64,000 bases of DNA from a virus (Duplodnaviria; Heunggongvirae; Uroviricota; Caudoviricetes). How positions within the stretch are numbered: position 1 is the stretch's first letter; the number at the start of each line of letters is the position of its first letter. Positions 1 to 41,697 of the stretch are shown piece after piece. A program made the position numbers and the translations under genes. The DNA is taken from IMG/VR virus record IMGVR_UViG_2693429713_000009; one strand, given 5' to 3'. A model generated the notes under the pieces. The model ran no database searches and was not told the origin of the DNA. It saw nothing but the letters and a program-made list of their open reading frames with translations.

Positions 1-359
1 TCCTCGCGGCGCGCGCGGCGAAAGCTATCACTCTTCTCGAACCACCTGTTTCTGACGTCAATGATGTTGATGATGAACAGCTGGACAAAGAGGCAAGGGA
101 GTTTGCAACGCTTCAGGCTAACCATCCGCAATGGCTGGCAGAGCGCCGGGCGGATGTGGCAACCATTGTTGAAGAATTGGGGTGCGGAGATTACGACCGC
201 AATGGCGAGCGTAAAGCTGGAGAATTCGAGGCCAACGACGAAGAGCTGGATATTGACCCTTCGGCAACGGCTGAAATTTACGGTGATTATGATGCATCTG
301 ATGCAGGGTATGACGCCGGAGATGATGATATCGCGATAGAACCGCCGGAGGATGATTAA
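1..359 (+). CDS. putative terminase small subunit (PacA-like), 3' portion; start upstream of window
   Basis: Frame open from window edge to TAA 357-359; acidic C-terminal tail (DYDASDAGYDAGDDD); stop overlaps ATG of downstream large-terminase gene. Confidence 0.4.
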   Translation, partial: LAARAAKAITLLEPPVSDVNDVDDEQLDKEAREFATLQANHPQWLAERRADVATIVEELGCGDYDRNGERKAGEFEANDEELDIDPSATAEIYGDYDASDAGYDAGDDDIAIEPPEDD

Positions 360-1867
360 TGGCTGGCGGGCGCAAGATTAAATGCGTCACCAGCGATCCA
401 CGCTGGCGCGATATGGTAATCAAATACCGCTACAACTTTACCCAGGCTGTTGTCGATATTTTTGGGATGTTCCCCTCCCACCAGCAGCAGCAGATCATTC
501 AGTCAGTGCAGGAAACGGGGAGTAGGACGACCGTCACGTCCGGACACGGAACGGGGAAGTCGTCCCTTACCGCGATGTTGCTGTTGATTTTTATGATCCT
601 GTTCCCCGATGCCCGTGTCATCATTGTTGCTAACAAGATAGGCCAGGTAAAAACAGGCGTATTCAAATACGTTAAACAGTATTGGGCGAATGCAGTTAAG
701 CGTCATGGGTGGTTGCAGACCTATTTTGTCCTCTCTGACACCATGTTTTATGAGCGCTCCCGTAAGGGGATTTGGGAAGTTCTCTGCAAAGGTTATCGAC
801 TCGGCAACGAAGAAGCGCTGGCGGGGGAACATGCGGCACATTTGCTTCTAATTCTGGATGAAGCATCTGGTATATCTGATAAGGCGATCGGCGTAATGAC
901 CGGTGCTCTTACTGAAGAAGATAACCGGATGTTGATGCTATCCCAGCCAACAAGGCCAAGTGGTTATTTCTACGATTCGCACCATTCTCAAGCAAAAACC
1001 CCAGACAACCCGAAAGGGATCTGGACAGCAATTGTTCTTAACTCGGAAGAATCACCGTTCGTCACACCACAATTCATCAAGCAGAAGCTTCTGGAATATG
1101 GCGGGCGCGATTCTATTGAGTACATGGTCAAGGTGCTTGGTCAGTTCCCACGAGAAATTAACGGCTATTTGCTTGGTCGTGATGAATGCGATCGCGCAGC
1201 TCGCCGCAAGGTGTTGTTGGAGAAAAACTGGGGATGGGTGGCAACGGCTGACGTTGGTAATGGGCGAGATAAGTCGGTCCTCAACATCTGCAAGGTATCT
1301 GGTCACAGGGATAAGCGGCGCGTTGTTAACTTTAAGGTAATGGAGATGCCTGGCACTATGGACCCATTGGCCTTTGCTGACTTCATATATAACGAATGTA
1401 CGCCGGAAAAATACCCGAATATAACAATCGCGGTTGATGCCGATGGTTTTGGTTCTGATACGTGTGCGCAGTTGGTGCGTCGTGGTGCGAACCCGGTACG
1501 TATTCGGTGGGGAAAACCCATGTTTGCGAACAAAGACAGGGAGCGATTTGTTAATCAGCGTGCCTACGCAAATATTATGGCGCGTGATGCCATAAAGTCA
1601 GGGCGTATGCGGATAGACAGTGACCCTAAAACGGCAGAGCAAGCGTCAAAAATCCCCTTTTTACTGAATGAGGAAGGGAAAATGGCGATGATGCGCAAAG
1701 AGCACATGCGGCAAAAGCTAAACATCAAATCGCCTGACCGATGGGATACCTACTGCTTCACTATGCTGGTGGACTATGTGCCTGCTAATGAAGATATTGG
1801 TGCCGAAATGGCAACTTTCCGAGATCAGGTTCTGGCGGATATCGAAATGCCAGATCTGGATATATAA
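359..1867 (+). CDS. terminase large subunit (PacB-like ATPase/nuclease)
   Basis: 502 aa; N-terminal Walker A GHGTGKSS; TAATG coupling to upstream gene; size and layout typical of large terminases. Confidence 0.7.
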   Translation: MAGGRKIKCVTSDPRWRDMVIKYRYNFTQAVVDIFGMFPSHQQQQIIQSVQETGSRTTVTSGHGTGKSSLTAMLLLIFMILFPDARVIIVANKIGQVKTGVFKYVKQYWANAVKRHGWLQTYFVLSDTMFYERSRKGIWEVLCKGYRLGNEEALAGEHAAHLLLILDEASGISDKAIGVMTGALTEEDNRMLMLSQPTRPSGYFYDSHHSQAKTPDNPKGIWTAIVLNSEESPFVTPQFIKQKLLEYGGRDSIEYMVKVLGQFPREINGYLLGRDECDRAARRKVLLEKNWGWVATADVGNGRDKSVLNICKVSGHRDKRRVVNFKVMEMPGTMDPLAFADFIYNECTPEKYPNITIAVDADGFGSDTCAQLVRRGANPVRIRWGKPMFANKDRERFVNQRAYANIMARDAIKSGRMRIDSDPKTAEQASKIPFLLNEEGKMAMMRKEHMRQKLNIKSPDRWDTYCFTMLVDYVPANEDIGAEMATFRDQVLADIEMPDLDI

Positions 1868-1888
1868 AGCCCCGCGATGCGGGGCCAG
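1868..1888. terminator. stem-loop between convergent genes (GCCCCGC-GAT-GCGGGGC)
   Basis: Perfect 7-bp stem directly after pacB-like stop; A/T-rich run on the side facing the minus-strand gene. Confidence 0.45.
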
Positions 1889-1894
1889 TTGTGA

Positions 1895-2932
1895 TTACCA
1901 GAGCTTCGCGGCGTACTGCGTTTGGGGGAATGTGTATCCGTAACGTTCTTCGATTGCTTTGCCGTATTTTTTACGAGCTTCATTCAGTTTAATGCCGGTC
2001 AGGTCGTCTCCAGAGGCCATCATTACGTCTAACAATTCCAGATCCATTTTATCCAGCCTTGCCATTGCTTCACGTGATGTACGTATCTTACGCTCAATGA
2101 TATGGCGAATAGCCGGATCGGCATCCTCCAGCATCTTAGCGGATTTCTGCTTAAGGCTTTCATTGCGAATATCGATGTTCCTTAAGATGTACGACTTCGC
2201 AACGTAGCTTGGCTGGTGTTTTTCCAGGTCACGAACACGATATAAGTTAAAATCGCCGAGAAGGCTGCAAGGTACCGATTCGACGCCAGAATAAATTGTA
2301 ATGCTCCGGCGTTCACCAACATTATTGACAACGGGGATCGTTGTCTTCGGTAGTCTTGCGAAAACCAATGCGCCATGTGCGCCAACTCTAAAGCGAGAAA
2401 GGGCATTGCTGCCTTCGATGTTTGTTGTCAGCACAACATCTGTATATGCCTCTTTACGCGCCCGGTAGATCTCGCCTTCAGGCTCAGCTTCAAAGAAGCG
2501 CTGTTCTTCTTCAAGAGCACCTACGATTTGAGAAAAAACCCTATTTTTCAGGCTTTTCTTTATGATTTTGTCGTATTTTTTGAGCAATTGTTCACGTGTA
2601 AATGTACGTGTTGTTGTAGCGCTTTGCACAACAACATGCGTGCTTTGATTGGTGTCCTCAATGATGAATGGGATCGGAGAATATACAGACTCAACAATGT
2701 TCGACGCTTTGCCGTCGGCATCGCGACACATGTCAACGAAGGCTTTCCATTCAGCAAGACATTTTTCAGCTTCTTCTAATATGTTTTGGTCATGCGTTAA
2801 TGCAACATGGCGGAATTCCTCGCCAGCATAACTGGTATCATGGAAAACAGAGTTTGCGACCACCAGCTCTTTCCACCGTTCAGCGGTTTGCAGGAACCGT
2901 TTGTACTCTTTCTCGATCGACTTCTTACTCAT
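1895..2932 (-). CDS. hypothetical protein; candidate C1-type primary immunity repressor (by position and adjacent operator)
   Basis: 345 aa ORF with AGGA SD; occupies the c1 position between pac genes and lox-cre as I recall it in P1; 17-bp operator-like motif 13 bp upstream of its start; no sequence similarity to P1 C1 recognised. Confidence 0.4.
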   Translation of the reverse strand: MSKKSIEKEYKRFLQTAERWKELVVANSVFHDTSYAGEEFRHVALTHDQNILEEAEKCLAEWKAFVDMCRDADGKASNIVESVYSPIPFIIEDTNQSTHVVVQSATTTRTFTREQLLKKYDKIIKKSLKNRVFSQIVGALEEEQRFFEAEPEGEIYRARKEAYTDVVLTTNIEGSNALSRFRVGAHGALVFARLPKTTIPVVNNVGERRSITIYSGVESVPCSLLGDFNLYRVRDLEKHQPSYVAKSYILRNIDIRNESLKQKSAKMLEDADPAIRHIIERKIRTSREAMARLDKMDLELLDVMMASGDDLTGIKLNEARKKYGKAIEERYGYTFPQTQYAAKLW

Positions 2933-2944
2933 TATTCCTACTCG

Positions 2945-2961
2945 ATTTAGTTTTCTAACAT
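2945..2961 (-). promoter_or_regulatory. operator-like 17-bp motif, site A (ATGTTAGAAAACTAAAT on minus strand)
   Basis: Member of a dispersed motif family (consensus about TGTGTTAGAAAAYTAAA) found in at least 7 intergenic regions. Confidence 0.4.
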
Positions 2962-3142
2962 AAAATTACTATGACAAATTTATGTCGAATAACAGAGTGA
3001 GTAAAGGATCGAACTGTGATTTTTTGTCATCAATTTTAGAAAACCAACTGTATAAACCACACTTCGCAAATTAAAGACCATGAAGGCAACGTGTTACTGG
3101 TCAGAATCAATCTGTGATGGATTAAAAAAAATCGCCATTTTA

Positions 3143-3174
3143 TAACTTTAAATAATTGGCATTATTTAAAGTTA
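3143..3174. other. lox-like recombination site candidate (inverted arms around an asymmetric core)
   Basis: TAACTTTAAATA-ATTGGCAT-TATTTAAAGTTA: 12-bp perfect inverted arms flanking an 8-bp asymmetric spacer, about 150 bp upstream of the Cre-like gene. Confidence 0.4.
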
Positions 3175-3326
3175 GGCTATAATCATGTGTAGATGAACAG
3201 TGTTGACATCACTGAAAATACGTGCCTCGAATCAAAGGCTTGTATTTTGAAAATTAACTTATAGCTACCCTGTCATTTTTATATTTTTCGCGTAGCGTCA
3301 TCTGTATATAGAGGTCAAATAGTTTC

Positions 3327-4355
3327 ATGAGTGAATTAATTATCTCTGGCAGTTCCGGTGGTTTTCTGCGCAACATTGGCAAAGAGTACCAGGAAGCCGC
3401 AGAAAACTTTATGCGGTTCATGAATGACCAGGGGGCTTATGCGCCGAATACTCTGCGCGACCTCCGTTTGGTGTTTCATTCCTGGGCGCGCTGGTGTCAC
3501 GCTCGCCAGCTTGCCTGGTTTCCGATCTCACCAGAAATGGCCCGCGAGTATTTTCTTCAGCTGCATGATGCCGATCTGGCTTCGACCACCATTGATAAGC
3601 ACTACGCCATGCTGAACATGCTGCTTTCGCATTGTGGCCTTCCGCCACTTTCGGATGATAAAAGTGTTTCTCTGGCTATGCGGCGCATCCGGCGCGAAGC
3701 GGCAACTGAAAAAGGCGAACGAACAGGCCAGGCTATACCGCTGCGGTGGGACGATCTGAAACTGCTCGACGTCCTGTTGTCCAGGTCAGAACGGCTGGTG
3801 GACCTGCGCAACCGGGCTTTTCTCTTTGTTGCATACAATACGCTGATGCGTATGTCGGAAATATCGCGTATTCGTGTAGGTGATCTGGACCAAACAGGTG
3901 ACACTGTCACGCTACATATTTCACACACGAAGACAATAACGACCGCCGCCGGGCTTGATAAGGTGCTTTCCCGTCGCACTACCGCTGTGCTGAATGACTG
4001 GCTGGATGTTTCCGGGCTTCGCGAACACCCTGACGCAGTGCTGTTCCCGCCGATACACCGTAGCAATAAGGCCAGGATCACGACAACGCCACTTACTGCA
4101 CCTGCAATGGAGAAAATATTCAGCGACGCCTGGGTGTTGCTGAATAAAAGAGATGCTACGCCAAACAAAGGAAGATACCGGACGTGGACCGGGCATAGTG
4201 CACGCGTCGGGGCCGCTATTGATATGGCTGAAAAGCAGGTGTCTATGGTGGAGATCATGCAGGAAGGAACCTGGAAGAAACCGGAAACACTTATGCGGTA
4301 TCTCCGCCGTGGCGGCGTGTCTGTGGGGGCTAATAGCCGCCTGATGGATTCGTAA
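3327..4355 (+). CDS. cre: Cre-like tyrosine site-specific recombinase
   Basis: 342 aa; alignable by eye with P1 Cre (…SVSLAMRRIRRE…, AYNTLMRMSEISRIRV, TGHSARVGAA, LMRYLRR with catalytic Tyr); R-K-H-R-W-Y positions conserved. Confidence 0.85.
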   Translation: MSELIISGSSGGFLRNIGKEYQEAAENFMRFMNDQGAYAPNTLRDLRLVFHSWARWCHARQLAWFPISPEMAREYFLQLHDADLASTTIDKHYAMLNMLLSHCGLPPLSDDKSVSLAMRRIRREAATEKGERTGQAIPLRWDDLKLLDVLLSRSERLVDLRNRAFLFVAYNTLMRMSEISRIRVGDLDQTGDTVTLHISHTKTITTAAGLDKVLSRRTTAVLNDWLDVSGLREHPDAVLFPPIHRSNKARITTTPLTAPAMEKIFSDAWVLLNKRDATPNKGRYRTWTGHSARVGAAIDMAEKQVSMVEIMQEGTWKKPETLMRYLRRGGVSVGANSRLMDS

Positions 4356-4356
4356 A

Positions 4357-4372
4357 TTAAATTTCTAACACA
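4357..4372 (-). promoter_or_regulatory. operator-like motif, site B (TGTGTTAGAAATTTAA on minus strand)
   Basis: Same motif family as site A; lies immediately after cre stop and upstream of the next operon. Confidence 0.35.
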
Positions 4373-4428
4373 TCTTTTTAGATTAACATCTTTGCTGTAA
4401 AGTACCCTCGCCTACTTAGGAGGGTGCT

Positions 4429-4773
4429 TTGCAGAGTCAAATCACGGAATCAAGACGCTTCAAGGTGGATGGTTACACCGTAACCTTCGCCGCTGGTGTT
4501 AAGAACAGTCATGCTGTCGTTGTGTTCGGCATCATGACCGGGCTTGAGGCCGTCCCTGTGTTTACCCTCGAAAAAAACTGGCGAAATCTGGCGGAAGCAG
4601 AAAGCTACGTCCGGAAAGTAACCATCATTGCCGCCGAAAAACTCCTGGCCCACTATCAGGAAAATTATCGCACTATGGTCGAGAAGATTAATCTCGCTTT
4701 CACTCGCCCCACTACCGGCTTTATTGCACCGGATACTAATGCAGGTCGATATCCTGCAAGGGGGCGTCGGTGA
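4429..4773 (+). CDS. hypothetical protein (TTG start)
   Basis: 114 aa ORF preceded by AGGAGG; ATGA overlap with next gene. Confidence 0.5.
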   Translation: MQSQITESRRFKVDGYTVTFAAGVKNSHAVVVFGIMTGLEAVPVFTLEKNWRNLAEAESYVRKVTIIAAEKLLAHYQENYRTMVEKINLAFTRPTTGFIAPDTNAGRYPARGRR

Positions 4774-7176: not shown

Positions 7177-8260
7177 GAGCAATATTTATAAAGATCCGCG
7201 CTGGCTGTCGCTGGTGGAGAAATATAAAGACAATTGGGTTCTGGCAGCAAAAGAATTGTTTGATATTGATTTAAGCCACCAGCAACAACAAATTGTTGAA
7301 GCTATACAGCCCAATAATGCAAAAGCTACTGTCACCACTCCGCATGGGATCGGACGACCGCAAGTGCTTGCTGTTATTAGTACCCTTTATACGATTATGT
7401 ATCCTGATTCCCGGACAGTAATTGTTTATCCAAAATCAAATGCTTGCAAAAAAGGAATTGTTGCATATGTGTGGCAATGTTGGGAGGCATTACTGAAAAA
7501 ACAACCTTTTATCATTGAGTATTTTAAGGTCGGTGATAGCGGTCTGATGTTCAATGAATTTTGGGGAATGTGCTTTTGTAACTACCGCCTTAACTATGAA
7601 GATAGCATTGCAGGTCACTACGCCGACCATCTGTTATTCATTATTGTGGATTCCGCACATATAAGCGATCGGGCATACAGTATTGTGTGGGCAAGCATGA
7701 CTAGTGGTGATTCACGCATATTGCTCACTTCAATTCCGTCACCAGAGGAAATAGGATTTTTTTATGATTCTCATCATGGGCGTGCTTTAGCTGAAGATAA
7801 TCCGAGTGGTGTCTATAAAGCCATTAAGCTGAGTGCTGAGGATTCACCATTTATTACCCAAGAATATCTTGATCATTTTGCCGAAAGGTATGGCGGGCGA
7901 AATAGTGATGACTACCGTCGTATGATTCTTGGTGAGTTCCCTGGTATTAGGGAGGCTGTTCTTGAATCAGATATGCCGAAAACAATGCGTTTTTCAATGC
8001 CTGATGGCAGTGAATGGACAATGCCATTACGAGTGATAGCCAAGCATCATGCACAGCACCACGCCAAAAAACATGGCGTTACAACATTAGAGTGGTTGAA
8101 ATCGCACACCATTCCACTCTTCACTGCAGATCACAATGCTATCGTTGAGTGGGCAAAAACAATTCCGTGGGGGAATGTCGCTGAATACGCCCACATGCTA
8201 AAACCGCCGAAAGACAGGCAAGAAATTAGCTGGCTGACAGCAGAAAAAATCATTGAGTGA
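7166..8260 (+). CDS. terminase-large-subunit-like paralog with degenerate Walker A
   Basis: 364 aa; shares DPRW, HQQQQI, FYDSHH, EDSPF, YGGR(D/N)S, LG(Q/E)FP blocks with the 359-1867 terminase, but P-loop is PHGIGRPQ instead of GHGTGKS and the C-terminus is unrelated. Confidence 0.55.
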   Translation: MATKSNIYKDPRWLSLVEKYKDNWVLAAKELFDIDLSHQQQQIVEAIQPNNAKATVTTPHGIGRPQVLAVISTLYTIMYPDSRTVIVYPKSNACKKGIVAYVWQCWEALLKKQPFIIEYFKVGDSGLMFNEFWGMCFCNYRLNYEDSIAGHYADHLLFIIVDSAHISDRAYSIVWASMTSGDSRILLTSIPSPEEIGFFYDSHHGRALAEDNPSGVYKAIKLSAEDSPFITQEYLDHFAERYGGRNSDDYRRMILGEFPGIREAVLESDMPKTMRFSMPDGSEWTMPLRVIAKHHAQHHAKKHGVTTLEWLKSHTIPLFTADHNAIVEWAKTIPWGNVAEYAHMLKPPKDRQEISWLTAEKIIE

Positions 8261-8267
8261 TAGTAGA

Positions 8268-8297
8268 AAGCCCGCCTGGTTGAGCGGGCTTCTTTTC
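8268..8297. terminator. intrinsic terminator hairpin between convergent genes
   Basis: AAGCCCGC-ctggttga-GCGGGCTT followed by CTTTTC. Confidence 0.55.
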
Positions 8298-8676
8298 AAA
8301 TATTGGAACCATATAGTTCACGTAGTTTTTCCGCTACTGAAGATACGGGGATTTCACCAGTTGCAGCCCCCACCGCAAGTTCCACCAGCACGGGAGAATC
8401 ATATACCTGTATACCGTTACGGCGTAGAAATAGCAGCGCACTGTTTAGCGCGGTACGCTTATTGGCATCATTGAATATATGCCCTCTCGCTGTAGCCACC
8501 AGGTAGGTGGCGGAGACTTCGAAAAGGTCGGTGATCTCTTCGTAGGCAACTCTGGCCTGAACTCTCCCGATAATGGCCTCTGCCCTACCCGGATCTGACA
8601 TTCCCGGCAGGCCGCCGTAGCGGTTTATATTCGCATCATGAAGCGCAATAAGTTCTTCCGGTGATATATGCCTCAT
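8296..8676 (-). CDS. doc: Doc toxin (Fic-fold kinase) of the phd-doc addiction module
   Basis: 126 aa; N-terminus [17 protein letters not shown]…; nearly identical to P1 Doc as I recall it. Confidence 0.9.
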
Positions 8677-8897
8677 TATCGGTTAACCAGTTCCTTGTTG
8701 GTGGAGTCCAGGGTGTCAAACAGGGATGCAAATTCAGCATCCAGCGCCGCTTTTTTGTAGGCTTCGAAAGTAGCCTTGCTGACAATTACTGCTGGCTCAC
8801 GGCCTCTGCGGGTGATTTCAACCTCTTCCCCGGCTTCAACATTGTTGAGCACTTCAGAAAGGTTGCCGCGCGCGGTACGGAAGTTAATGGATTGCAT
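8676..8897 (-). CDS. phd: Phd antitoxin
   Basis: 73 aa from ATG at 8897 ([17 protein letters not shown]…); stop overlaps doc start. Confidence 0.9.
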
Positions 8898-8906
8898 AAA
8901 CACCTC

Positions 8907-8927
8907 GTGTACTCGTTATGTGTACAC
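8907..8927. promoter_or_regulatory. phd-doc operator candidate (GTGTAC…GTGTACAC palindromic elements)
   Basis: GTGTACtcgttatGTGTACAC lies about 10 bp upstream of the phd start codon. Confidence 0.4.
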
Positions 8928-8969
8928 AATTATAAACCTCACAGGCATAAAGCACCAGACCTTTGCAGC

Positions 8970-9359
8970 TTAAATAACCGGACAATCATCAAACTCCCCA
9001 CTTCGGGCATCATTGATGACATGAGTGATCACACCAAAAACAGCATTACTCCCCGTGCATCCATCGTCATCCACTGGTAACGCCTCTTTCTTCCCAGTGC
9101 TTAAATCCTCCAGGTGCTGGCGCGGATACTTCCGGTATCTCTTTATGCGATATTCACCCTCCATAGCGCAGACAAGTAGCGAACCATCAACCGGAGTAAG
9201 TGAGGAATCGACCACCAGCAAAGCACCCTGCAATATTCCCTCACGGTGATGGCTATCAGCTGCCCGCATGAAGTAGGTTGCTGATGGATGCCTGATTAGT
9301 TGCTGATCAAGAGAAATTCGGCTTTCAACATAATCCGCCGCAGGAGAAGGGAAGCCCAT
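8970..9359 (-). CDS. humD: UmuD'-like protein (HumD-like)
   Basis: 129 aa; UmuD-like core (…PSPAADYVE…HPSATYF…) lacking the cleavable N-terminal arm. Confidence 0.75.
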   Translation of the reverse strand: MGFPSPAADYVESRISLDQQLIRHPSATYFMRAADSHHREGILQGALLVVDSSLTPVDGSLLVCAMEGEYRIKRYRKYPRQHLEDLSTGKKEALPVDDDGCTGSNAVFGVITHVINDARSGEFDDCPVI

Positions 9360-11483: not shown

Positions 11484-11689
11484 AGTTTTATTTCCTTGCA
11501 TGGTTCGCCTTTACGGCAAACAGCTACACGGTCATTTCTTACATTAACCACAGTCACCGTTCCGTCATCGCATTGAATAACGATGAAAGGGTGTTCATTC
11601 TCTTTTGTGCAATGTTGCTGTTCTCCAGCCATTGCAGCCGGAGGAGCAAATAGCGCCAGAACAAATGCCAGCCTTAAAAAATGCTTCAT
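11480..11689 (-). CDS. small secreted Cys-containing protein
   Basis: 69 aa; N-terminal signal peptide (…LALFAPPAAMA), 4 Cys in mature part. Confidence 0.45.
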   Translation of the reverse strand: MKHFLRLAFVLALFAPPAAMAGEQQHCTKENEHPFIVIQCDDGTVTVVNVRNDRVAVCRKGEPCKEIKL

Positions 11690-11695
11690 TTGGCC

Positions 11696-11750
11696 TTATC
11701 CGTTATCAAAATTGGAATATCCGTTATCACGAGAGTGATATCCGTTATGA
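11696..11750. repeat. three direct repeats ATCCGTTAT(C/G) at about 22-bp spacing
   Basis: Copies at about 11696, 11718 and 11741, just upstream (minus sense) of the 11689 gene start. Confidence 0.45.
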
Positions 11751-11771
11751 AGTGGGGAATAAGACCACTTA

Positions 11772-11945
11772 TCAATACCCTCCGCCTGACTCAAAGTTGG
11801 CGATAAGCCAGGCTGCGAAAAGAGTAACCCCACTCCAAAAACCACACCCCACCGTACCCCATTTAACACCACCAGCTAATAAAACAAATAAACCGCAAAG
11901 GCATACAAACAAAAAAGTAATCCAAAATTTCTTTCTGTTTTTCAT
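11772..11945 (-). CDS. small hydrophobic membrane protein (57 aa), absent from the ORF track
   Basis: MKNRKKFWITFLFVCLCGLFVLLAGG…; start overlaps stop of upstream gene as TAATG. Confidence 0.35.
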   Translation of the reverse strand: MKNRKKFWITFLFVCLCGLFVLLAGGVKWGTVGCGFWSGVTLFAAWLIANFESGGGY

Positions 11946-13579: not shown

Positions 13580-14009
13580 TGTTTACAGCTTGGCAAGCCT
13601 CTTTGAGCACCCAGTCAACAGCGTCTTTCCATGCTCCGGTTTCGACTGGCGGATTTTCACGCTTAACCTGTTCATAGAAGCGCACTGCTTTAACCAGTCC
13701 TTCTGATGTCACCGGGACTGGCGGGGCAGTGAATAAGGCCTGAATCTCATAGCTCGGCCTGTCGTTGCAATCCTCTTTTGTCGGTACATATTTCCAGTCA
13801 CCAACCCACGAATCCCCCTGAGAGTCCGTAACACCTTTTTTCACGTAGCGATATCGCCACGCGACTGGCTCTGCTTCCAACGATGCCAGTGCGATACGAA
13901 ACACATTGGCAAGCAGACTGCTTGAAGATTGGTTATCGTGCGCCGGGTCGCTCAGGAAACCAGTGATGAATGATTTAATTTCCGCGTTTTCTCTGGTAAT
14001 AGTGGTCAT
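13560..14009 (-). CDS. hypothetical protein, N-terminal paralog of 12800-13267
   Basis: 149 aa; shares RIALASLEAEPVAW block. Confidence 0.5.
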   Translation of the reverse strand: MTTITRENAEIKSFITGFLSDPAHDNQSSSSLLANVFRIALASLEAEPVAWRYRYVKKGVTDSQGDSWVGDWKYVPTKEDCNDRPSYEIQALFTAPPVPVTSEGLVKAVRFYEQVKRENPPVETGAWKDAVDWVLKEACQAVNIDIKGE

Positions 14010-14266
14010 TTATTAATCCTCAAAACTTTATGCCCGGGCGCAAAAGCACGTGTTTTGTCTTTGCTTATTCGCCAGCCATCCTTGCGCGCCTCTTTTGCAC
14101 AGCCAGCCCATGACGTACCGATATACTCACCGAAGTCTGGCGTTTGATATTTACCATTTGTACACTGGCGACAATCACAGTAGAGATGCATGGTGTAACT
14201 TGCAGCGATAGCCACATCACTCTCCTTTAGTACGCAAGTGGTTTTTCCAGCGGTTTTGCGCCGCAC
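14006..14266 (-). CDS. hypothetical Cys-rich small protein
   Basis: 86 aa; ATGA overlap with upstream gene; start uncertain. Confidence 0.4.
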   Translation of the reverse strand: MRRKTAGKTTCVLKESDVAIAASYTMHLYCDCRQCTNGKYQTPDFGEYIGTSWAGCAKEARKDGWRISKDKTRAFAPGHKVLRINK

Positions 14267-14409
14267 TGGGCTTTTTGCAACAACTGTGACCCATCACCCC
14301 GCAACACCCCGCCAACCTCACTCGTCTGTTACTAATCCTCAACCAGCGCCAGATCCCAACACCGTTTCTGCGAGCTAACAGAATTTTTGCTTTACGGTTT
14401 TTCATCGCT

Positions 14410-15192
14410 TTACTCTTCTTCCTCACGCCCAAGATATGAAAGAGATGTGACTGCTGTTGCATGGAAACCACAAACCTTGCTAAGTGCGCTTTTAAACTCT
14501 TCAAGGTCGGATTGCGATTTGATTCTGAAAGGTGACTGCGCAATCCCGGACATGGTAATGCCACTAACATTGCTCACTGCGTTGTAGTGATATACGTGCC
14601 TATTAGCTGATTGAGTCACGCGTTCCTGTTGGCTGTTTATATTGGCATCCTGCCCTGTGGTGGTCTTCTCCAACTCTTCGATACGTTCAGCCATCGCAGC
14701 ACACTCTTCAAAATTGCTTAATGCTTTCCGCTCCCATTCAGCGCATTGTTTTTTCAGTTCTGCAATGCGCTTCTCTGCGGATTCCAGCGCCGCAACCAAT
14801 TCGTCTACAGTTCCGGAAGCTTGCAGTGCGTAATCGGTAATAGCCATCTCATGATCAATTTCAGTACCGTTCTCATTCGTTGAGGTGATAGCAAAATAAT
14901 CAGAGTCGATTTCGTTATCAGCTAAGTGGCGTAGCGTATCGGCAACAAGCCGGCCGTTTTCGATTAGCAGCTTCCCTACCGTTAGCGCAATATCCTCGTT
15001 CTCCTGGTCACGGCGTTTGATGTATTGCTGGTTCCTTTCCCGTTCTTCCAGAAGCGCCAGCACAATATGTGGCGTTATCAAGGACTTAAATTCGGCAACA
15101 GCTTGCTCGCCTCGCTTGTAATTCTTAATCCCACCTAAATTTTTCGCGTTCTGTGCCGCCTCACGCAGTGCCTGGTAATTAATTTCGCTCAC
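14410..15192 (-). CDS. Ea22/ead-like family protein
   Basis: 260 aa; N-terminus MSEINYQALREAAQNA typical of the family (from memory); coiled-coil middle. Confidence 0.6.
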   Translation of the reverse strand: MSEINYQALREAAQNAKNLGGIKNYKRGEQAVAEFKSLITPHIVLALLEERERNQQYIKRRDQENEDIALTVGKLLIENGRLVADTLRHLADNEIDSDYFAITSTNENGTEIDHEMAITDYALQASGTVDELVAALESAEKRIAELKKQCAEWERKALSNFEECAAMAERIEELEKTTTGQDANINSQQERVTQSANRHVYHYNAVSNVSGITMSGIAQSPFRIKSQSDLEEFKSALSKVCGFHATAVTSLSYLGREEEE

Positions 15193-15637
15193 TGGTTGCC
15201 TCCTTATTAATCAGTTTATACAGGTGCACCACAGTCACAGAGAGTGCATCCATCGCTCGTTTATCCAGGCGCGGGGCCAGAGCAACCAGTTCATTTATTG
15301 CAATCTGAATACGCTGCTCCGCCGCCAGCGTCGCGCGATTGCTCTCCAGTTCTGCAATTCGGCACATGGCATCAATATTTGTGTCTTCCAGGCGCTTAAT
15401 TTCGCCCAGGAGTGCCAGCGCAACTTTTGGTGGGATAGCCGCGATATAACGGGCATTAGCACCAGCATTCCTTTGTCCATCAATGCCAGGCCAGTCAATA
15501 AAGTATCCGCAATGCCTACCTTCAGACGTGCGCGCAGGATAAATGCCGTTATGACCCGGCAAAATATATGCTACCCATTCATCTTGCGTTGCCTGTTCCG
15601 CCGCCTCGCGCAGTTCTTGATAGTTAATTTTGCTCAC
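15179..15637 (-). CDS. Ea22/ead-like family protein
   Basis: 152 aa; MSKINYQELREAAEQATQDEW N-terminus. Confidence 0.6.
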   Translation of the reverse strand: MSKINYQELREAAEQATQDEWVAYILPGHNGIYPARTSEGRHCGYFIDWPGIDGQRNAGANARYIAAIPPKVALALLGEIKRLEDTNIDAMCRIAELESNRATLAAEQRIQIAINELVALAPRLDKRAMDALSVTVVHLYKLINKEATSERN

Positions 15638-15923
15638 TGGTTGCCTCCGCTTCCCACGTTTTCAGACTTTCACCACAGAATGGGCAAAATGAAACTCGAA
15701 TAGGCGATTTAGAAAATTCACCAGACCGCAGCATGATCAGGTCCTGTGAATGAATTAATTCATGGTTATAGACTTTGTATTTCAGCAGGCCTTTTCGCGT
15801 CGTGTATTCAGCATCCTGCTCCAGAGATTGTGCCAGCGCCGCGCACGGTTCTATTTTTCTGCCATTAATCAAACAAGTGGAGATTCTGCACTTTGCAGCT
15901 CCGTCACCGTTACCTTGACTCAT
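15624..15923 (-). CDS. hypothetical protein with C-terminal CPFCG zinc-ribbon-like motif
   Basis: 99 aa ORF. Confidence 0.45.
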   Translation of the reverse strand: MSQGNGDGAAKCRISTCLINGRKIEPCAALAQSLEQDAEYTTRKGLLKYKVYNHELIHSQDLIMLRSGEFSKSPIRVSFCPFCGESLKTWEAEATSEQN

Positions 15924-15936
15924 TGCGTTGTTCCCA

Positions 15937-16932
15937 TCAGTTATTGAACGTGATCACTCCGCGCTCGATGGCGAAGTCGAAAAGCTGGTTAGCGGCTACA
16001 TAAAGGCGTATGCCATGTGCTTTTTCCCATGCCCGGACATCGTTTTCTGCGCTTCTGGCGCAGTCATCGCAAAGAGGAACAGCCCAGCGGTCGTGTTCGT
16101 TTAACGAGCGGGCACGGTACATGAACGGGTGATTAACCTTGCCACCGCAGCCTACACACGGACGAGACACCACAAACCGGAGATAAGCCTGGCTTTTTCC
16201 GAGTAAGGTTTTTGGACGGCGCATATATAGGAGGCCAGAATCCTCATCGACGGACAGATTGACGATCTGCTCTGCGGAAATATCCACCAGCTCGCGGGTA
16301 CTATGCTCCCAGGTAATATCCGACTCTTTCAGAGTGCCGGTAGGGATTTCAGTTTTTGGCTGACAAAATGCAATGCGACCAGCTTCATCAGGCAGTTCGT
16401 CTTTAAGATTCCGGCGAATGGCCCAAAAGGTGAGTTCAACCATGCTCAGATCGCGATCTGGCGGAAGTTTTAACTCGCTGGCAGCCCAGTTCATAATCCA
16501 GTTGGCGCGATTCCGTGACAGTTGGTCTTCCAGCTTGCCGTATCCCTTCATCATGTATTCCGCATCATGCTTCCAGCACAGGCGAACGGCAGAACCGTTA
16601 TAGAAATGGGTGGTTAGCTGGTGGCTGCAATCGCGCTTATCATGCGCCTGGCAATCGTGAATGTTGGTGCTAACCCAGTGAACGAGAGAATCCTCACCAC
16701 CTAACGCGTTAAATACGCGCTCACTTTGAAAAAAGGGTGCCAGTGACTGGTTGGCAACCAGTGAATAATTCAGGTCAACGACACCATCAGGGGTTTTTTC
16801 AGCCTGTTCACGCGGTAATGGGGATATAAGAAAACGGCGTCCTGCGCCGATGTAATTGCTGGTGGGCTTATCTACAGGAAAGACAGCCACACCAGTTTCA
16901 TTTACGACATATGGGGTGATTATTGCACTCAT
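15937..16932 (-). CDS. DUF968-like phage protein with C-terminal CxxC…H…CxxC motif
   Basis: 331 aa; …CVGCGGKVNHPFMYRARSLNEHDRWAVPLCDDCAR… resembles HNH-type zinc motif; family name from memory. Confidence 0.45.
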   Translation of the reverse strand: MSAIITPYVVNETGVAVFPVDKPTSNYIGAGRRFLISPLPREQAEKTPDGVVDLNYSLVANQSLAPFFQSERVFNALGGEDSLVHWVSTNIHDCQAHDKRDCSHQLTTHFYNGSAVRLCWKHDAEYMMKGYGKLEDQLSRNRANWIMNWAASELKLPPDRDLSMVELTFWAIRRNLKDELPDEAGRIAFCQPKTEIPTGTLKESDITWEHSTRELVDISAEQIVNLSVDEDSGLLYMRRPKTLLGKSQAYLRFVVSRPCVGCGGKVNHPFMYRARSLNEHDRWAVPLCDDCARSAENDVRAWEKAHGIRLYVAANQLFDFAIERGVITFNN

Positions 16933-16973
16933 AATGCATACCGACTCTGTTTTGTTCCGATCGGTAAAATAAT

Positions 16974-16990
16974 ATGTTAGAAAACTAAAA
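16974..16990 (+). promoter_or_regulatory. operator-like motif, site C (ATGTTAGAAAACTAAAA)
   Basis: Intergenic, upstream of the 16932 gene start. Confidence 0.4.
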
Positions 16991-17030
16991 TCAATGTTCT
17001 AACGTGATTTTGAGTGCGTAAATGATTTGA

Positions 17031-17723
17031 TCAGACTTTAAGCTGCCCTCCCTTCACCTGCATTAGCGTCAGATTTCCGCAAAAAACCGCGCCCGTGTCT
17101 ATGTAGTGCTGATTCCAGTATGCTTTTGGTCTTCGTACCGGTGTGTGCCCAAAGATAAAGCGATCTGCGCCTGTGATTTCTCCACCAATGCCATCTATCG
17201 AATCACCGACGCGACTGCGCGACCAGACAACATCAAAAAGCGACACATCCTTACCGAACTGGTACTCTCCACCTGGATAGTCGGCATGGGCTATAACGAT
17301 AGTTTCATGCCCGGTGTTCAACTCAATGATATAGGGCAGACGTCTTACCAGCTCCACCAGCGCCCTGGCTAATATTTCCTGATCAGCGTCCAGCATGAAG
17401 AACCATTGTCCGCCATTCATTAGCCAGTTATTCACGTTGCCATCAGGACTTAACGCATCGATCATTAATCGCTCGTGGTTTCCCATAACCGACCGAAACC
17501 AGGGCATCTGCAATAGCTCCAGGCATTCAACATTTTCGGTGCCGCGATCGATAAGGTCGCCAACCGATATCAGTAAATCCTGCGCCGGGTCAAAATCCAC
17601 ACGATGGAGTTCGGACATCAGTCTGGTGTAGCAACCATGCAGATCACCAACAACCCATATGTTTCTGTAGCCAGAACCATCAATACGGCTATATAAATTC
17701 ACTTCATGCATAGCCTGGATCAT
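17031..17723 (-). CDS. Ser/Thr protein phosphatase, lambda PPase family
   Basis: 230 aa from ATG 17723; metallophosphatase motifs GDLHGC, GDLIDRG, GNHE; alignable with lambda PPase. Confidence 0.8.
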
Positions 17724-18031
17724 GCGGCAACCTTCTCCCGCAGCCAGATACAAACTGGACCATCTTCAGTGTCATGGATAGAGCCAACAAACCAGCCTTC
17801 ACCCTCTGGTCGCTCCGGTTCCCAGGCGGCAATATCGGGTCCAGCTGCGTCCAGATCAAAATCATCTTCATCCATACTGCGAATAGTCCACTGAAGATTA
17901 TTTTCCTTCATCCAGGCGTCAAATTCCTCAGTGGAAATATATTCACGACCTGCGCAAAACTTCTCATACTCCGGATGTGTCCAGCAGCCATATTCATCAC
18001 GTTCTACCGGCATTTCTTTAATGATGCTCAC
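17720..18031 (-). CDS. hypothetical protein
   Basis: 103 aa; ATGA coupling. Confidence 0.5.
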
Positions 18032-18252
18032 TCTTCATCCTCCAAGTCGGCAACGGCCTCCATCACATCAGAACCGCGAATAACCTCAAAAGCACGGCAG
18101 GCCATTTCAAACACCTGTTGTTCTTGCGGATGCGGTGACTCCCAATACTTAAAACCAGGTCGATGCTCGTAACCCATCATGGAATAAAAATCGCCAGCAA
18201 GTTCAATCGCGGCATCAACAAGTTCGCGATTTGTCATCGTCTGTTCTGTCAT
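18028..18252 (-). CDS. hypothetical protein
   Basis: 74 aa; overlapping start/stop with neighbours. Confidence 0.45.
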   Translation of the reverse strand: MTEQTMTNRELVDAAIELAGDFYSMMGYEHRPGFKYWESPHPQEQQVFEMACRAFEVIRGSDVMEAVADLEDEE

Positions 18253-21562: not shown

Positions 21563-21579
21563 TGTGTTAGAAAATCTAT
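21563..21579 (+). promoter_or_regulatory. operator-like motif, site D (TGTGTTAGAAAATCTAT)
   Basis: About 65 bp upstream of the ref-like gene, in the divergent promoter region. Confidence 0.4.
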
Positions 21580-21642
21580 TTTGAATATCTAACCATTTTG
21601 ATCAATCATAGAAAAATCGCTGAAAAGTAAGAGGCTGCCATC

Positions 21643-22221
21643 ATGCAGAAACAGAGCTATTGGGAGAAACAGAGGCAAAAAGCCATGCAAAAATTGGCTG
21701 ACCCGGCCTGGCGAGAGGAACAAAGGGCAAAGCGCCTTCAACAAGCTCAACGCCAGCAGCAGCGAGCGAGAGAAAAAGCCGCATCGCCTGAATATCGGCA
21801 AAAAAAAATTGAAAAAGCAAAGCAATATGACCAGCGGAGAAAAGAGAAAGCTGTATCCGCTCCGTCCAAAAAAACACGCACGTCACGCGGCCTGAAGGGC
21901 AGATCACTCACAGCCGATGAACGCCGGATACAGACCGCTATCGGTACTCTCCCCTGCATTGCCTGCCATATTCACGGGAAACATAGCCCAGTGGTATCCC
22001 TGCACCATATCTTCGGGAGAACGGCAGAGAACGCACATAAATATGTCCTCCCTTTGTGTAAATGGCACCACCAGTACGCAGCGCCAGCCGAGGTCCGAGA
22101 ACAATATCCCTGGCTGGTCCCTGTTCATGCTGATGGAAAAATAGGCGGAAAAGCAGATTTCATACGGCACAATGCCGATGAAATGGCGTTGTATCAGATG
22201 GCGATTGAATTGATAAATTAG
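21643..22221 (+). CDS. ref: Ref-like HNH endonuclease (recombination enhancement function)
   Basis: 192 aa; Arg/Lys/Gln-rich N-terminus then HNH-type motif CIACHIHG…SLHH…PLCKWHH. Confidence 0.7.
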   Translation: MQKQSYWEKQRQKAMQKLADPAWREEQRAKRLQQAQRQQQRAREKAASPEYRQKKIEKAKQYDQRRKEKAVSAPSKKTRTSRGLKGRSLTADERRIQTAIGTLPCIACHIHGKHSPVVSLHHIFGRTAENAHKYVLPLCKWHHQYAAPAEVREQYPWLVPVHADGKIGGKADFIRHNADEMALYQMAIELIN

Positions 22222-22232
22222 TTTTCTAACAT
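22216..22232 (-). promoter_or_regulatory. operator-like motif, site E (ATGTTAGAAAACTAATT on minus strand)
   Basis: Overlaps the ref stop codon. Confidence 0.35.
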
Positions 22233-22788
22233 TTTAAGTTGAATTGTGAATTTCCCCGATGTACATTCACTACCGATTGGTACACCGGTCAACTTTTTGA
22301 GACAAACTGTTTAGTTTTTCGTATTATTGCCGCCGCCATACCTATGGCGGTGCAATATAGGTGGCTGAAAAGCCCCCGTTGACTCACGGTGTTCCAGCCT
22401 TTATTGCGCCGCCACCAGACCGTGGAACAGTCGATGGCGGCTCCGAAAGCAAGGAGTCACTACACTATGAACAACTACAGTCTTTTCCCATCACTCGTCG
22501 TCCACCACTCACGCGATAATCTGCATTCTTTACTCGCGCCGGGGGTGTCAAAATGACTGTTCGCTACCTCAACTTTCAAATCAAGAACATTACTGGCGGT
22601 TGCTATGACTGGTTTGTCACTCTCGGAAAAGAAGTGATTACTGGTAAACTGGATGAAGTGAAAGCTAAAGCAATGGCCTACGCCTGCAAGCAAACCAGGA
22701 AGAAATCAACCAAGCATAAAGCCTGAAGGTGTAGGGTTACCCGGGGTCGTCGGGGCTTTAACTACTAAATAACCGGATTCTCCGCACG

Positions 22789-24133: not shown

Positions 24134-24350
24134 GTAAACAAAATGAAGTTTTATGTTATAAAAACAATTAACTACATCAACATGATTTAGGCCAAATTTC
24201 GGTCAAAAAATAAAATCCACAAAAAGTGGTTGACACTATTTTGGAAATCACAAACTGCACATAATCCATCGCGCTAACGGCTCCCGTTGAAGGTTCTTTT
24301 GACGATTAACTTTCAGCCGAAGCGCGGTAGGGAGTCATAACGCCAAAGCA

Positions 24351-31750: not shown

Positions 31751-31784
31751 TATGTTAGATAATTAACATGCATTTTCTAACACA
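31751..31784. promoter_or_regulatory. pair of operator-like motifs in opposite orientation (sites H and F)
   Basis: TATGTTAGATAATTAACA (plus) and TGTGTTAGAAAATG (minus strand) immediately upstream of the rdgC-like start at 31796. Confidence 0.4.
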
Positions 31785-41678: not shown

Positions 41679-41697
41679 TGTGTTAGAAAACTAAAAT
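41679..41697 (+). promoter_or_regulatory. operator-like motif, site G (TGTGTTAGAAAACTAAAAT)
   Basis: Divergent region between the 41665 operon and the putative head gene. Confidence 0.4.

What the first reader, a model, noticed from the sequence alone, without database searches (positions are those of the whole stretch)
1895..4372. Dispersed 17-bp operator family suggests a C1-type multi-operator immunity regulon
A motif close to TGTGTTAGAAAA(C/T)TAAA recurs in intergenic regions at 2945-2961, 4357-4372, 16974-16990, 21563-21579, 22216-22232, 31751-31784 (two copies, opposed) and 41679-41697, with weaker copies near 3035-3049. One copy sits 13 bp upstream of the 345-aa minus-strand gene at the c1 position (between pac genes and lox-cre as I recall P1), and another upstream of the ref-like gene, which I recall as C1-controlled in P1. 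Asymmetric 17-bp operators scattered over the genome are the recalled hallmark of P1 C1 control, though this sequence differs from the P1 consensus I remember (ATTGCTCTAATAAATTT). That would make the 345-aa protein a diverged C1-like repressor.
Basis: partly seen in the sequence, partly recalled or inferred. Interest (0 to 1): 0.6.

Follow-up and report, generated by a model that had tools for sequence, protein, structure and literature searches.

The report
Repressor binding sites of a D6-like phage-plasmid
The repeated motif is real and is most likely the set of DNA sites through which this P1-related plasmid-prophage's master repressor keeps its lytic genes silent; this is expected for such a phage, though the repressor's predicted shape unexpectedly resembles the bacterial replication-terminator protein Tus.

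Summary
The window is a D6-like, P1-related phage-plasmid. It is 86-99% identical to phage D6 in blocks and about 99.9% identical over window 14000-34000 to a Salmonella Concord plasmid. The motif is confirmed. Its core is TGTTAGAAAA inside a roughly 17-bp site. Twelve half-sites lie at nine loci, and all lie in non-coding DNA apart from a short overlap with the ref stop codon. The motif stays enriched against an intergenic-only background (8 hits against 0.19 expected) and with a matrix trained outside the window (9 against 0.58).

The sites occupy the same relative positions as annotated P1 C1 operators. In the window these are upstream of c1, upstream of ref, on the ref stop codon ahead of a C4-like antisense RNA, and upstream of hrdC-dmt. 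In the rest of D6 they are upstream of lpa, upstream of repL, and ahead of c4-icd-ant.

The core persists at the same positions in four relatives whose repressors are only 44-51% identical. A separate motif, AAATCACAAA plus a -10 element, marks the late genes, so the activator-box rival fails.

The 345-aa protein is 100% identical to D6 C1 and is a remote P1 C1 homologue (21% identity).

This is a new member of a known kind, with a different specificity from P1 and a different paired-site geometry. Protein binding is inferred and was not shown.

Side lead: the C1 model matches only Tus among solved structures.

The parts
1895..2932 (-). c1 gene: 345-aa D6-type C1 prophage repressor, lying between pacB and the rox/dre recombination module
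   Evidence: 100% identical to D6 C1. Annotated 'prophage repressor, similar to P1 C1'. BLASTP against P1 C1 gives 21% identity over 240 aa, E 2e-8. NCBIfam phage_rep_C1 gives E 8.9e-6. Relatives carry PF27008 Phage_P7_repressor_C1.
2946..2962 (-). c1-proximal operator TATGTTAGAAAACTAAA, ending 13 nt before the c1 ATG and reading toward c1 (putative autoregulation)
   Evidence: The same position and orientation are conserved in L005, L006, L012 and L013. It overlaps the weak sigma-70-like pair TTGTCA-17-AAAACT.
3032..3048 (+). c1-distal operator AATTTTAGAAAACCAAC (weaker), inverted relative to the proximal one, with cores 82 bp apart
   Evidence: Scores 13-15 bits. Relatives have a full-core copy at the same place, inverted, 83-95 bp from the proximal site.
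4356..4372 (-). Operator directly after the dre stop codon and upstream of the orf117-orf116-dut operon (next ORF starts at 4429)
   Evidence: Conserved directly after the recombinase gene in L005, L006 and L012.
16973..17006 (.). Paired (34-bp) operator between the ppp-like gene and the DUF968/pdcB-like gene (15937-16932, minus strand). The half-sites are 16973-16989(+) and 16990-17006(-).
   Evidence: second half matches the core 8/10. DUF968 assignment. L006 has a 26-bit site upstream of its DUF968 gene. The sigma-70-like pair TTGATT-17-TATTTT overlaps the operator.
21563..21596 (.). Paired operator in the divergent region between ref (21643-22221, plus strand) and the orf88/DUF4406 operon (minus strand). 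This is the positional counterpart of P1 Oref.
   Evidence: second half matches the core 7/10. P1 Oref lies 99-115 bp upstream of ref.
22217..22233 (-). Operator overlapping the ref stop codon and about 110 bp upstream of the C4-like RNA. It is the counterpart of P1 Omat (formerly Op2b) by position and of Oc4 by what lies downstream.
   Evidence: P1 Omat 2628-2645 overlaps the ref stop at 2637. P1 has the order Oc4 then c4.
22340..22419 (+). C4-type antisense RNA gene (immunity I component) downstream of the operator at 22217
   Evidence: Rfam RF01695: 40.2 bits (gathering score 45), E 5.4e-6, full model 1-87. Not reported at the gathering threshold. In D6 outside the window, an operator is followed by c4-a1b1 (55.9 bits), C4 (69.6 bits), icd and ant.
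24152..24168 (+). Weak candidate operator TATGTTATAAAAACAAT in the divergent simB-like/mat intergenic region
   Evidence: Scores 14-15 bits. Conserved in D6 at 72197-72213. The core has one mismatch. Uncertain.
31751..31784 (.). Paired operator (two full half-sites) ending 11 nt before the hrdC/rdgC ATG (31796). This is the positional counterpart of P1 Odmt (uhr-hrdC-dmt).
   Evidence: core matches 9/10 and 10/10. P1 Odmt. rdgC annotation.
41679..41695 (+). Operator 13 nt upstream of the orf52-like gene (41273-41665, minus strand), in the divergent region shared with the capsid gene. The capsid gene has its own late-type box at 41754.

Best explanation
The motif family is the operator set of the D6-type C1 repressor, the 345-aa protein encoded at 1895-2932. 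Each site has the core TGTTAGAAAA inside a footprint of about 17 bp.

Proposed mechanism: in the plasmid-prophage state, C1 binds single asymmetric sites and 34-bp inverted pairs placed at or next to the promoters of:
- its own gene (two sites, about 82 bp apart);
- an early operon after dre;
- the DUF968/pdcB operon;
- ref and the divergent orf88 operon;
- the C4-RNA immunity-I leader;
- hrdC-dmt;
- an orf52 operon.
Outside the window it would also control lpa, repL, c4-icd-ant and pmgS. Occupancy blocks transcription, which silences lytic replication, the late-gene activator and the antirepressor. Loss of C1 activity derepresses all of them together.

Shown here: the sites, their enrichment, their conservation, their positional match to P1 operators, and the homology of the protein to P1 C1.

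Inferred: that this protein binds these sites, that it binds as a monomer per half-site, and that it represses by promoter occlusion.
For: Enrichment.

Independent prediction: a matrix trained on the window finds 5 sites of at least 19 bits (null expectation 0.01) in the 33 kb of D6 that the window lacks. They lie 77 bp upstream of lpa, upstream of repL, ahead of a1b1-C4-icd-ant, and around pmgS. The near-identical plasmid NZ_CP028198.1 shows the same set.

Positional match to annotated P1 operators Oc1, Oref, Omat, Odmt, Olpa, OrepL, Orlf/Oc4 and OpmgR.

Operator type follows repressor type. There are no P1-consensus sites (up to 3 mismatches) in the window or in D6, and no D6-type sites in the 81 kb of P1 scanned. 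The flanking genes are nevertheless homologous.

The core is conserved at the same positions in four elements whose C1 is 44-51% identical.

Sites occur in both orientations and as inverted pairs, which fits an operator rather than a directional promoter element.

C1 homology.

P1 precedent: 22 dispersed asymmetric 17-bp operators (PMC8546580).
Against: There are no binding or expression data.

Sigma-70-like hexamers near the sites are weak, at 8-9 of 12 matches, and none was found for the site at 4356. Promoter overlap is therefore not established.

The homology to P1 C1 is remote, and the NCBIfam score is far below its cut-off.

No Coi gene lies upstream of c1, and the ORF at the lxc position in D6 shows no similarity to P1 Lxc. 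The accessory circuitry may therefore differ from P1.

Some sites lie beside genes that P1 labels morphogenetic (pmgS, pmgM), although P1 itself has C1 operators there.

The two D6 papers could not be read.
Confidence: 0.85

Rival explanations
1. The sites are real regulatory sites but are bound by another protein, not the 345-aa C1 homologue. Candidates are a second phage regulator, such as the 103-aa product of 22789-23100 that PGAP calls 'transcriptional regulator', or a host factor.
For: No binding data exist. Several uncharacterised small proteins are encoded nearby, and Pfam finds nothing for them.
Against: The sites track the C1 type rather than the backbone. Orthologous positions carry the P1 consensus in P1 and the D6 motif in D6-type elements. 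Two sites flank the c1 promoter region in all six elements examined. The 22789-23100 region falls in the gap of the window-to-D6 map, while D6 keeps the motif at the same loci.
Confidence: 0.08
2. The motif is an activator box or late-promoter element recognised with Lpa, not a repressor operator.
For: A few copies lie next to genes named 'morphogenetic' in P1 (pmgS, pmgM).
Against: Late genes (mat, the capsid gene 23, tail genes) carry a different and more enriched box, AAATCACAAA followed after 6-7 nt by a -10 element. This resembles the P1 late box AAGTGACTT. The GTTAGAAAA sites sit at c1, lpa itself, repL, c4 and ref, in both orientations and as palindromic pairs. P1 also has true C1 operators at pmgR, pmgT and gene 26.
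Confidence: 0.02
3. The motif is a chance or compositional recurrence of an A/T-rich word in intergenic DNA.
For: Intergenic DNA here is AT-rich and the motif is A/T-rich.
Against: Intergenic-only null: 8 observed against 0.185 expected, maximum 3 in 200 simulations. The core is conserved at orthologous positions in four distant relatives whose flanks cannot be aligned. New sites were predicted in unseen D6 sequence.
Confidence: 0.01
4. The sites act mainly as plasmid-maintenance elements, or as Ter-like polar replication barriers bound by a Tus-like protein, with transcriptional repression secondary.
For: The C1 model's only whole-domain structural match is Tus bound to Ter DNA. The c1-proximal site resembles TerB.
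Against: The sites are dispersed at gene starts and match P1 operator positions. They occur in both orientations without the two-cluster polarity of a fork trap, and three are palindromic pairs. The Ter core GTTGTAAC occurs only twice in the window, at 8078 and 30117, away from any motif site. P1 C1 is an established transcriptional repressor (PMC8546580).
Confidence: 0.03

Closest known systems
Phage P1/P7 C1 repressor and its dispersed asymmetric 17-bp operators (immC plus immI tripartite immunity)
   Same: The repressor gene has the same genomic position, between pacB and the lox/rox-recombinase module. The protein is homologous over about 240 residues. Many single sites and some paired sites are scattered over a plasmid-prophage of about 90 kb. 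The sites are at the same genes (c1, ref, the ref stop codon, hrdC-dmt, lpa, repL, c4-icd-ant, the pmgR/S region). A C4 antisense RNA lies downstream of one operator.
   Different: The operator sequence differs: core TGTTAGAAAA against ATTGCTCTAATAAATTT, with no cross-matches in either genome. Paired sites are two abutting 17-mers (34 bp, cores 21 bp apart), not two 17-mers overlapping by 6 bp (28 bp). The repressor is 345 aa against 283 aa, with a helical C-terminal extension of about 100 aa. No coi, imcA or imcB lies upstream of c1. No detectable Lxc homologue sits at the lxc position in D6.
Phage D6 (MF356679 / AY753669) immC region
   Same: Window 1-3158 is 99.2% identical to D6 and C1 is 100% identical. 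Every window site has a D6 counterpart.
   Different: The window is not D6 but a mosaic relative, closest to Salmonella Concord plasmid pGMI14-002_2. After its C4-like RNA it lacks the second D6 icd-ant module. Neither D6 GenBank record annotates any operator.
E. coli Tus / Ter replication-termination system
   Different: There is no convincing sequence homology: hhalign probability is 0.2-9% and no family member hits Pfam Tus. TM-scores are low (0.29-0.33). The Ter core GTTGTAAC is absent from the sites. The function here is transcriptional repression at many promoters, not fork arrest.

Membership tests
P1/P7-type C1 repressor protein family | Detectable sequence homology to P1/P7 C1 | tested here: met
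   BLASTP gives 21% identity over 240 colinear residues, E 2e-8. NCBIfam NF041318 gives E 8.9e-6 over residues 7-240. The precomputed Pfam assignment for its cluster and relatives is PF27008 Phage_P7_repressor_C1. An HMM search finds 83 family clusters that share the N-terminal 245-residue core.
P1/P7-type C1 repressor protein family | Equivalog-level match (NCBIfam curated cut-off of 500 bits), meaning the same specificity as P1 C1 | tested here: not met
   25.4 bits against a 500-bit cut-off. tblastn against 50,697 phage records finds only D6. It is a distant subfamily, not a P1 C1 equivalog.
P1/P7-type C1 repressor protein family | Gene located between pacB and the site-specific recombination module | tested here: met
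   pacB 359-1867, c1 1895-2932(-), rox 3143-3174, dre 3327-4355. The same order holds in L005, L006, L012 and L013.
P1/P7-type C1 repressor protein family | Binds its operators as a monomer and represses transcription | not testable with these tools
   Requires EMSA, footprinting or stoichiometry measurements. The only indirect hints are the asymmetric single sites and a Tus-like predicted fold.
P1-type C1 operator regulon | Many asymmetric sites dispersed over the genome in non-coding DNA | tested here: met
   12 half-sites at 9 loci in the window and at least 15 strong half-sites in the complete sister plasmid. 10 of 11 core copies are non-coding.
P1-type C1 operator regulon | Sites match the P1 consensus ATTGCTCTAATAAATTT | tested here: not met
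   0 matches with up to 3 mismatches in the window and in D6. P1 has 13 such matches in the 65 kb scanned with the consensus. The element would be expected to be heteroimmune with P1.
P1-type C1 operator regulon | Sites at c1, lpa, repL, c4-icd-ant, ref, dmt and similar genes | tested here: met
   Site-by-site positional comparison with the P1 annotation (searches compared with 29, 61, 68, 72).
P1-type C1 operator regulon | Operators overlap sigma-70 promoters | tested here: inconclusive
   Only weak hexamer pairs (8-9 of 12) lie next to most sites, and none was found for the site at 4356. No transcription start data are available.
P1-type C1 operator regulon | Bivalent operators formed by two 17-mers overlapping by 6 bp (28 bp) | tested here: not met
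   Here the paired sites are two abutting 17-mers spanning 34 bp with cores 21 bp apart. The same 21-bp spacing is seen in L013. P1 Oc1ab and Obanab span 28 bp.
P1-type late promoters (Lpa-dependent) | A conserved box centred near -22 plus a -10 element, upstream of late morphogenetic and lysis genes | tested here: not met
   A different motif, AAATCACAAA followed after 6-7 nt by a -10 element, fills this role at mat, gene 23 and the tail genes. The GTTAGAAAA motif is not at those positions.
Tus (PF05472) replication terminator family | Sequence membership in PF05472 | tested here: not met
   No Pfam hit for any of 75 family members. hhalign probability is 0.2-8.8%.
Tus (PF05472) replication terminator family | Tus fold | tested here: inconclusive
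   [not shown]

The most novel reading that the evidence does not exclude
The C1 immunity repressors of P1/D6-type phage-plasmids and the replication-terminator protein Tus share a fold, and possibly an ancestor. Both would be monomeric proteins that clamp long asymmetric sites, each autoregulated by a site 10-13 nt upstream of its own start codon. The D6-type site (TATGTTAGAAAACTAAA) still resembles TerB (TATGTTGTAACTAAA). If this is right, the Tus/Ter fork trap, already proposed to have been domesticated from a plasmid gene (PMC6549158), would descend from, or be a sister of, a phage-plasmid repressor/operator system. It would also explain why C1 operators are asymmetric.
Probability: 0.3. 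Interest if true: 0.75.

Novelty: new member of a known kind. Interest (0 to 1): 0.42.

Why it matters
D6-like phage-plasmids are common in Escherichia and Salmonella: 936 plasmid records match a 20-kb stretch of this window. In the closest RefSeq plasmid the master repressor is still labelled 'hypothetical protein', and no operator is annotated in either D6 record.

A defined operator consensus and site map has three practical uses:
- It predicts which genes are silenced in the prophage.
- It predicts immunity groups; this element should be heteroimmune with P1.
- It supplies parts orthogonal to P1 C1 for engineering, alongside the already widely used Dre/rox system from the same locus.

The comparison with P1 is also a clean natural example of a repressor and about 20 operators changing specificity together while keeping their positions.

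The side observation of a Tus-like fold, if confirmed, would bear on the open question of where Tus/Ter came from.

Tried and rejected
- The local Pfam copy gives no hit for the 345-aa protein, and PHROGs gives only an 'unknown function' family.
- tblastn against phages reaches only D6, not P1.
- Rfam at gathering thresholds finds nothing in the whole window. The C4 RNA appeared only in an E-value search of 1 kb.
- The three papers most likely to describe D6 or P1 operators are not held, so prior description of the D6 motif could not be checked. They are Sauer & McDermott 2004 (PMC534624), Gilcrease & Casjens 2018 (PMC5800970) and Lobocka 2004 (PMC523184).
- Full-text searches for the motif words found only unrelated papers.
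- Sigma-70 consensus scans near the operators gave only weak matches, so I do not claim promoter overlap as shown.
- A search for an Lxc corepressor homologue at the syntenic D6 ORF was negative.
- Profile searches did not connect C1 to Tus by sequence. A profile of close Tus homologues added nothing because the retrieved Tus set was at least 81% identical.
- Aligning the D6 motif to the P1 consensus through a shared TCTAA gives about 9-10 matches by eye. I treat this as unproven.
- I considered the late-promoter, chance and alternative-binder readings and rejected or down-weighted them (see rival explanations).
Full report
**Identity of the window**

Megablast places window 1-3158 on phage D6 (MF356679) at 99.2% identity. 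The window runs backwards through the D6 origin. A full comparison shows a mosaic of blocks at 86-99% identity with several replacements. The closest record found is Salmonella enterica serovar Concord plasmid pGMI14-002_2 (NZ_CP028198.1, 92,366 bp), at 99.9% over window 14000-34000.

The locus has the P1 layout:
- pacB, 359-1867;
- a 345-aa ORF on the minus strand, 1895-2932;
- the rox site, 3143-3174;
- the Dre recombinase gene, 3327-4355.

The 345-aa protein is 100% identical to the D6 protein annotated 'prophage repressor, similar to P1 C1'. In the near-identical RefSeq plasmid it is labelled 'hypothetical protein'.

**The observation**

All listed copies exist within 0-3 bp of the stated coordinates. 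A position matrix adds the weak copy at 3032-3048 and another at 24152-24168.

Three loci are inverted pairs of abutting 17-mers, with GTTAGAA and TTCTAAC cores 21 bp apart centre to centre: 16973-17006, 21563-21596 and 31751-31784.

I applied four controls.
- A matrix trained only on sites outside the window finds 9 hits of at least 14 bits in the window, against 0.58 expected.
- Restricted to 5153 bp of intergenic DNA, with each region simulated from its own composition, it finds 8 against 0.185 expected, with a maximum of 3.
- An unbiased count of 7-mers in intergenic DNA ranks the words of this motif among the six most enriched, after AAATCAC.
- Ten of the 11 copies of the core with at most 1 mismatch are non-coding, although non-coding DNA is about 8% of the window.

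Information content shows a 10-bp core, TGTTAGAAAA, flanked by weaker lineage-specific positions.

**Independent prediction**

The window-trained matrix was run on the 33 kb of D6 that the window does not contain. It finds 5 sites of at least 19 bits, against a null expectation of 0.01. They lie:
- 77 bp upstream of lpa;
- upstream of repL;
- between repL and icd-ant;
- on both sides of pmgS.

The site after repL is followed, in order, by Rfam c4-a1b1 (55.9 bits), the C4 antisense RNA (69.6 bits), icd and an antirepressor gene. This is the P1 immunity-I layout of Oc4, a1b1, c4, icd and ant. The complete sister plasmid shows the same set of sites.

**Comparison with P1**

The P1 RefSeq record annotates its C1 operators: Oref, Omat, Ossb, Oc4, OrepL, Orlf, Odmt, Obanab, O26, Oppp, OpmgRa/b, OpmgT, Olpa and Oc1a-e. 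The D6-type sites occupy corresponding places.

| D6-type site | P1 counterpart |
|---|---|
| Two sites upstream of c1 | Oc1 |
| Pair upstream of ref | Oref |
| Site overlapping the ref stop codon | Omat (formerly Op2b), which overlaps the P1 ref stop codon |
| Pair upstream of hrdC-dmt | Odmt |
| D6 site upstream of lpa | Olpa |
| D6 site upstream of repL | OrepL |
| D6 site after repL | Orlf / Oc4 |
| D6 pmgR/S region | OpmgR |

In the window, the site on the ref stop codon is followed about 110 bp later by a full-length C4-type RNA match at 22340-22419. It scores 40.2 bits, just under the Rfam gathering score of 45, with E 5.4e-6.

The two operator vocabularies do not overlap. No match to the P1 consensus (up to 3 mismatches) occurs in the window or in D6. 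No D6-type site occurs in the 81 kb of P1 scanned. The operator type therefore switches together with the repressor type at orthologous positions, while the neighbouring genes remain homologous. I regard this as the strongest sequence-level argument that C1 is the cognate binder.

**Conservation in distant relatives**

The repressor has few relatives in the 5.8-billion-protein set: 11 clusters, with identity down to 44%. I read contigs for four of them: L005 (51%), L006 (44%), L012 (48%) and L013 (48%). They keep the pacB-c1-recombinase layout. They also keep the TGTTAGAAAA core at the following positions:
- just upstream of c1;
- as an inverted copy 83-95 bp further upstream;
- after the recombinase gene (directly after the stop in L012, about 70-130 bp beyond it in L006 and L005);
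- 79-100 bp upstream of lpa (in L013 as a pair with the same 21-bp spacing);
- upstream of a DUF968/pdcB-like gene.

The flanking intergenic sequence in these relatives is otherwise unalignable.

**The activator-box rival**

The most enriched intergenic word, AAATCAC (12 copies against 1.6 expected), belongs to a different motif. That motif is AAATCACAAA followed after 6-7 nt by a -10-like hexamer. It is found upstream of mat, the capsid gene and tail genes. It resembles the P1 late-promoter box, AACAAGTGACTT followed after 4 nt by TAnAAT, read from the annotated P1 late promoters.

The GTTAGAAAA sites are not at those positions. They occur in both orientations relative to the downstream gene and as palindromic pairs. 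This does not fit a directional promoter element.

**The protein**

Evidence for homology to P1 C1:
- BLASTP against P1 C1 gives a colinear alignment of 21% identity over 240 residues, E 2e-8.
- NCBIfam phage_rep_C1 matches residues 7-240 at E 8.9e-6, far below the equivalog cut-off.
- The precomputed Pfam label for the relatives is PF27008 Phage_P7_repressor_C1.
- A profile search of 1.84 billion representatives finds 83 clusters. Most are 250-290 aa and match only profile positions about 5-245. The conserved family core is therefore the N-terminal 245 residues, and the D6-type proteins carry an extra helical C-terminal region of about 100 residues.

It is thus a member of the C1 family in the broad sense and not a P1 C1 equivalog.

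**Mechanism**

By analogy with P1, C1 is the master repressor and binds 22 dispersed asymmetric 17-bp operators (PMC8546580). From the site positions, I propose that C1 occupies single sites and 34-bp pairs at promoters of its own gene and of early, replication, antirepressor and late-activator genes.

Promoter overlap is only inferred. Consensus scans give weak hexamer pairs (8-9 of 12) next to most sites, and none for the site at 4356.

The accessory circuitry may differ from P1. No coi, imcA or imcB lies between c1 and rox. The ORF at the lxc position in D6 has no similarity to P1 Lxc.

**An unexpected side result: resemblance to Tus**

I built an AlphaFold model of the repressor (pLDDT 79; N-terminal 244 residues modelled separately, pLDDT 82, pTM 0.63).

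Structural evidence:
- With Foldseek against the PDB, the only significant matches are four entries of E. coli Tus bound to Ter DNA. E-values run from 4.5e-7 to 1.6e-5, with probability 1.00 and about 306 aligned columns, but TM-scores of only 0.29-0.33.

Sequence evidence is negative or marginal:
- hhalign gives probability 0.2% with the narrow profile and 8.5-8.8% (E 0.004, 110 colinear columns) with a 75-sequence family profile.
- No family member hits Pfam Tus.

Site evidence:
- TerB, read from E. coli MG1655, ends 10 nt before the tus ATG and reads toward tus. Tus autoregulates through it (PMC8707476).
- The c1-proximal site ends 13 nt before the c1 ATG and reads toward c1.
- TATGTTAGAAAACTAAA aligns to TATGTT-G-TAACTAAA with 14 identities and two 1-bp gaps. 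The empirical P is 0.0016 against random 17-mers from the window and 0.019 against shuffles of the site. The similarity is weaker for the family consensus, which begins TGTG.

Tus has been proposed to derive from a plasmid gene (PMC6549158). I found no paper in the held library that links C1 and Tus. I treat this as a lead and not as a result.

**Novelty and verdict**

The kind of system is well known from P1, and the D6 repressor gene is annotated. What I could not find described is the operator set itself: neither D6 GenBank record annotates an operator, and the motif words appear in no relevant paper in the held literature. The two D6 papers could not be read, however.

I file this as a new member of a known kind. 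It differs from P1 in operator sequence, in the geometry of paired sites and in the C-terminal extension of the repressor. The main residual uncertainty is the absence of any binding data.

Noticed in passing
[not shown]
   Followed up: partly
window 24245, 28486, 32734(-), 41754, 50389, 57765 and others: A second dispersed motif, AAATCACAAA followed after 6-7 nt by a -10-like hexamer, lies upstream of mat, the capsid gene and tail genes. It is probably the Lpa-dependent late-promoter box of D6-type phages. AAATCAC is the most enriched intergenic 7-mer, with 12 copies against 1.6 expected. A copy between the two c1 operators (3022, minus strand) is unexplained.
   Followed up: partly
window 22340-22419 (+): There is a full-length match to the C4 antisense RNA family (RF01695) just under the Rfam gathering score (40.2 against 45 bits). 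Unlike D6 and P1, the window has no icd-ant genes after it. The D6 module (orf83-82) is replaced by small ORFs and a 103-aa 'transcriptional regulator' (22789-23100) with no Pfam match.
   Followed up: partly
whole window: The Chi sequence GCTGGTGG is strongly over-represented, with 40 copies against 5.4 expected: 22 on the plus strand and 18 on the minus strand. It is the top 8-mer in the window. As far as I recall, P1 is also Chi-rich.
   Followed up: no
window 3143-3174 and 3156-3183: The rox site (TAACTTTAAATAATTGGCATTATTTAAAGTTA) contains the only strong sigma-70 consensus in 2800-4500, TTGGCA-16-TATAAT (11 of 12 matches), pointing toward dre. A promoter would therefore be split by Dre-mediated recombination.
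   Followed up: no
NZ_CP028198.1 7253-8290 (equivalent to window 1895-2932): In the near-identical RefSeq plasmid the master repressor is annotated 'hypothetical protein' (WP_000039384.1). The local Pfam copy also has no model for it, whereas the precomputed Pfam label for its relatives is PF27008 Phage_P7_repressor_C1.
   Followed up: yes
D6 (L001) 7850-9085 and 9068-9084, 8912-8928; sister plasmid 91594-91766: Two operator-like sites lie just downstream of pmgS, at the edge of a stretch of about 1.2 kb with no annotated gene next to the tRNA cluster. What they control is unknown. This region is outside the window.
   Followed up: no
D6 (L001) 11549-11809: The small ORF next to ulx, at the position where P1 encodes the C1 corepressor Lxc, has no detectable similarity to P1 Lxc. 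Whether D6-type C1 uses a corepressor is open.
   Followed up: partly
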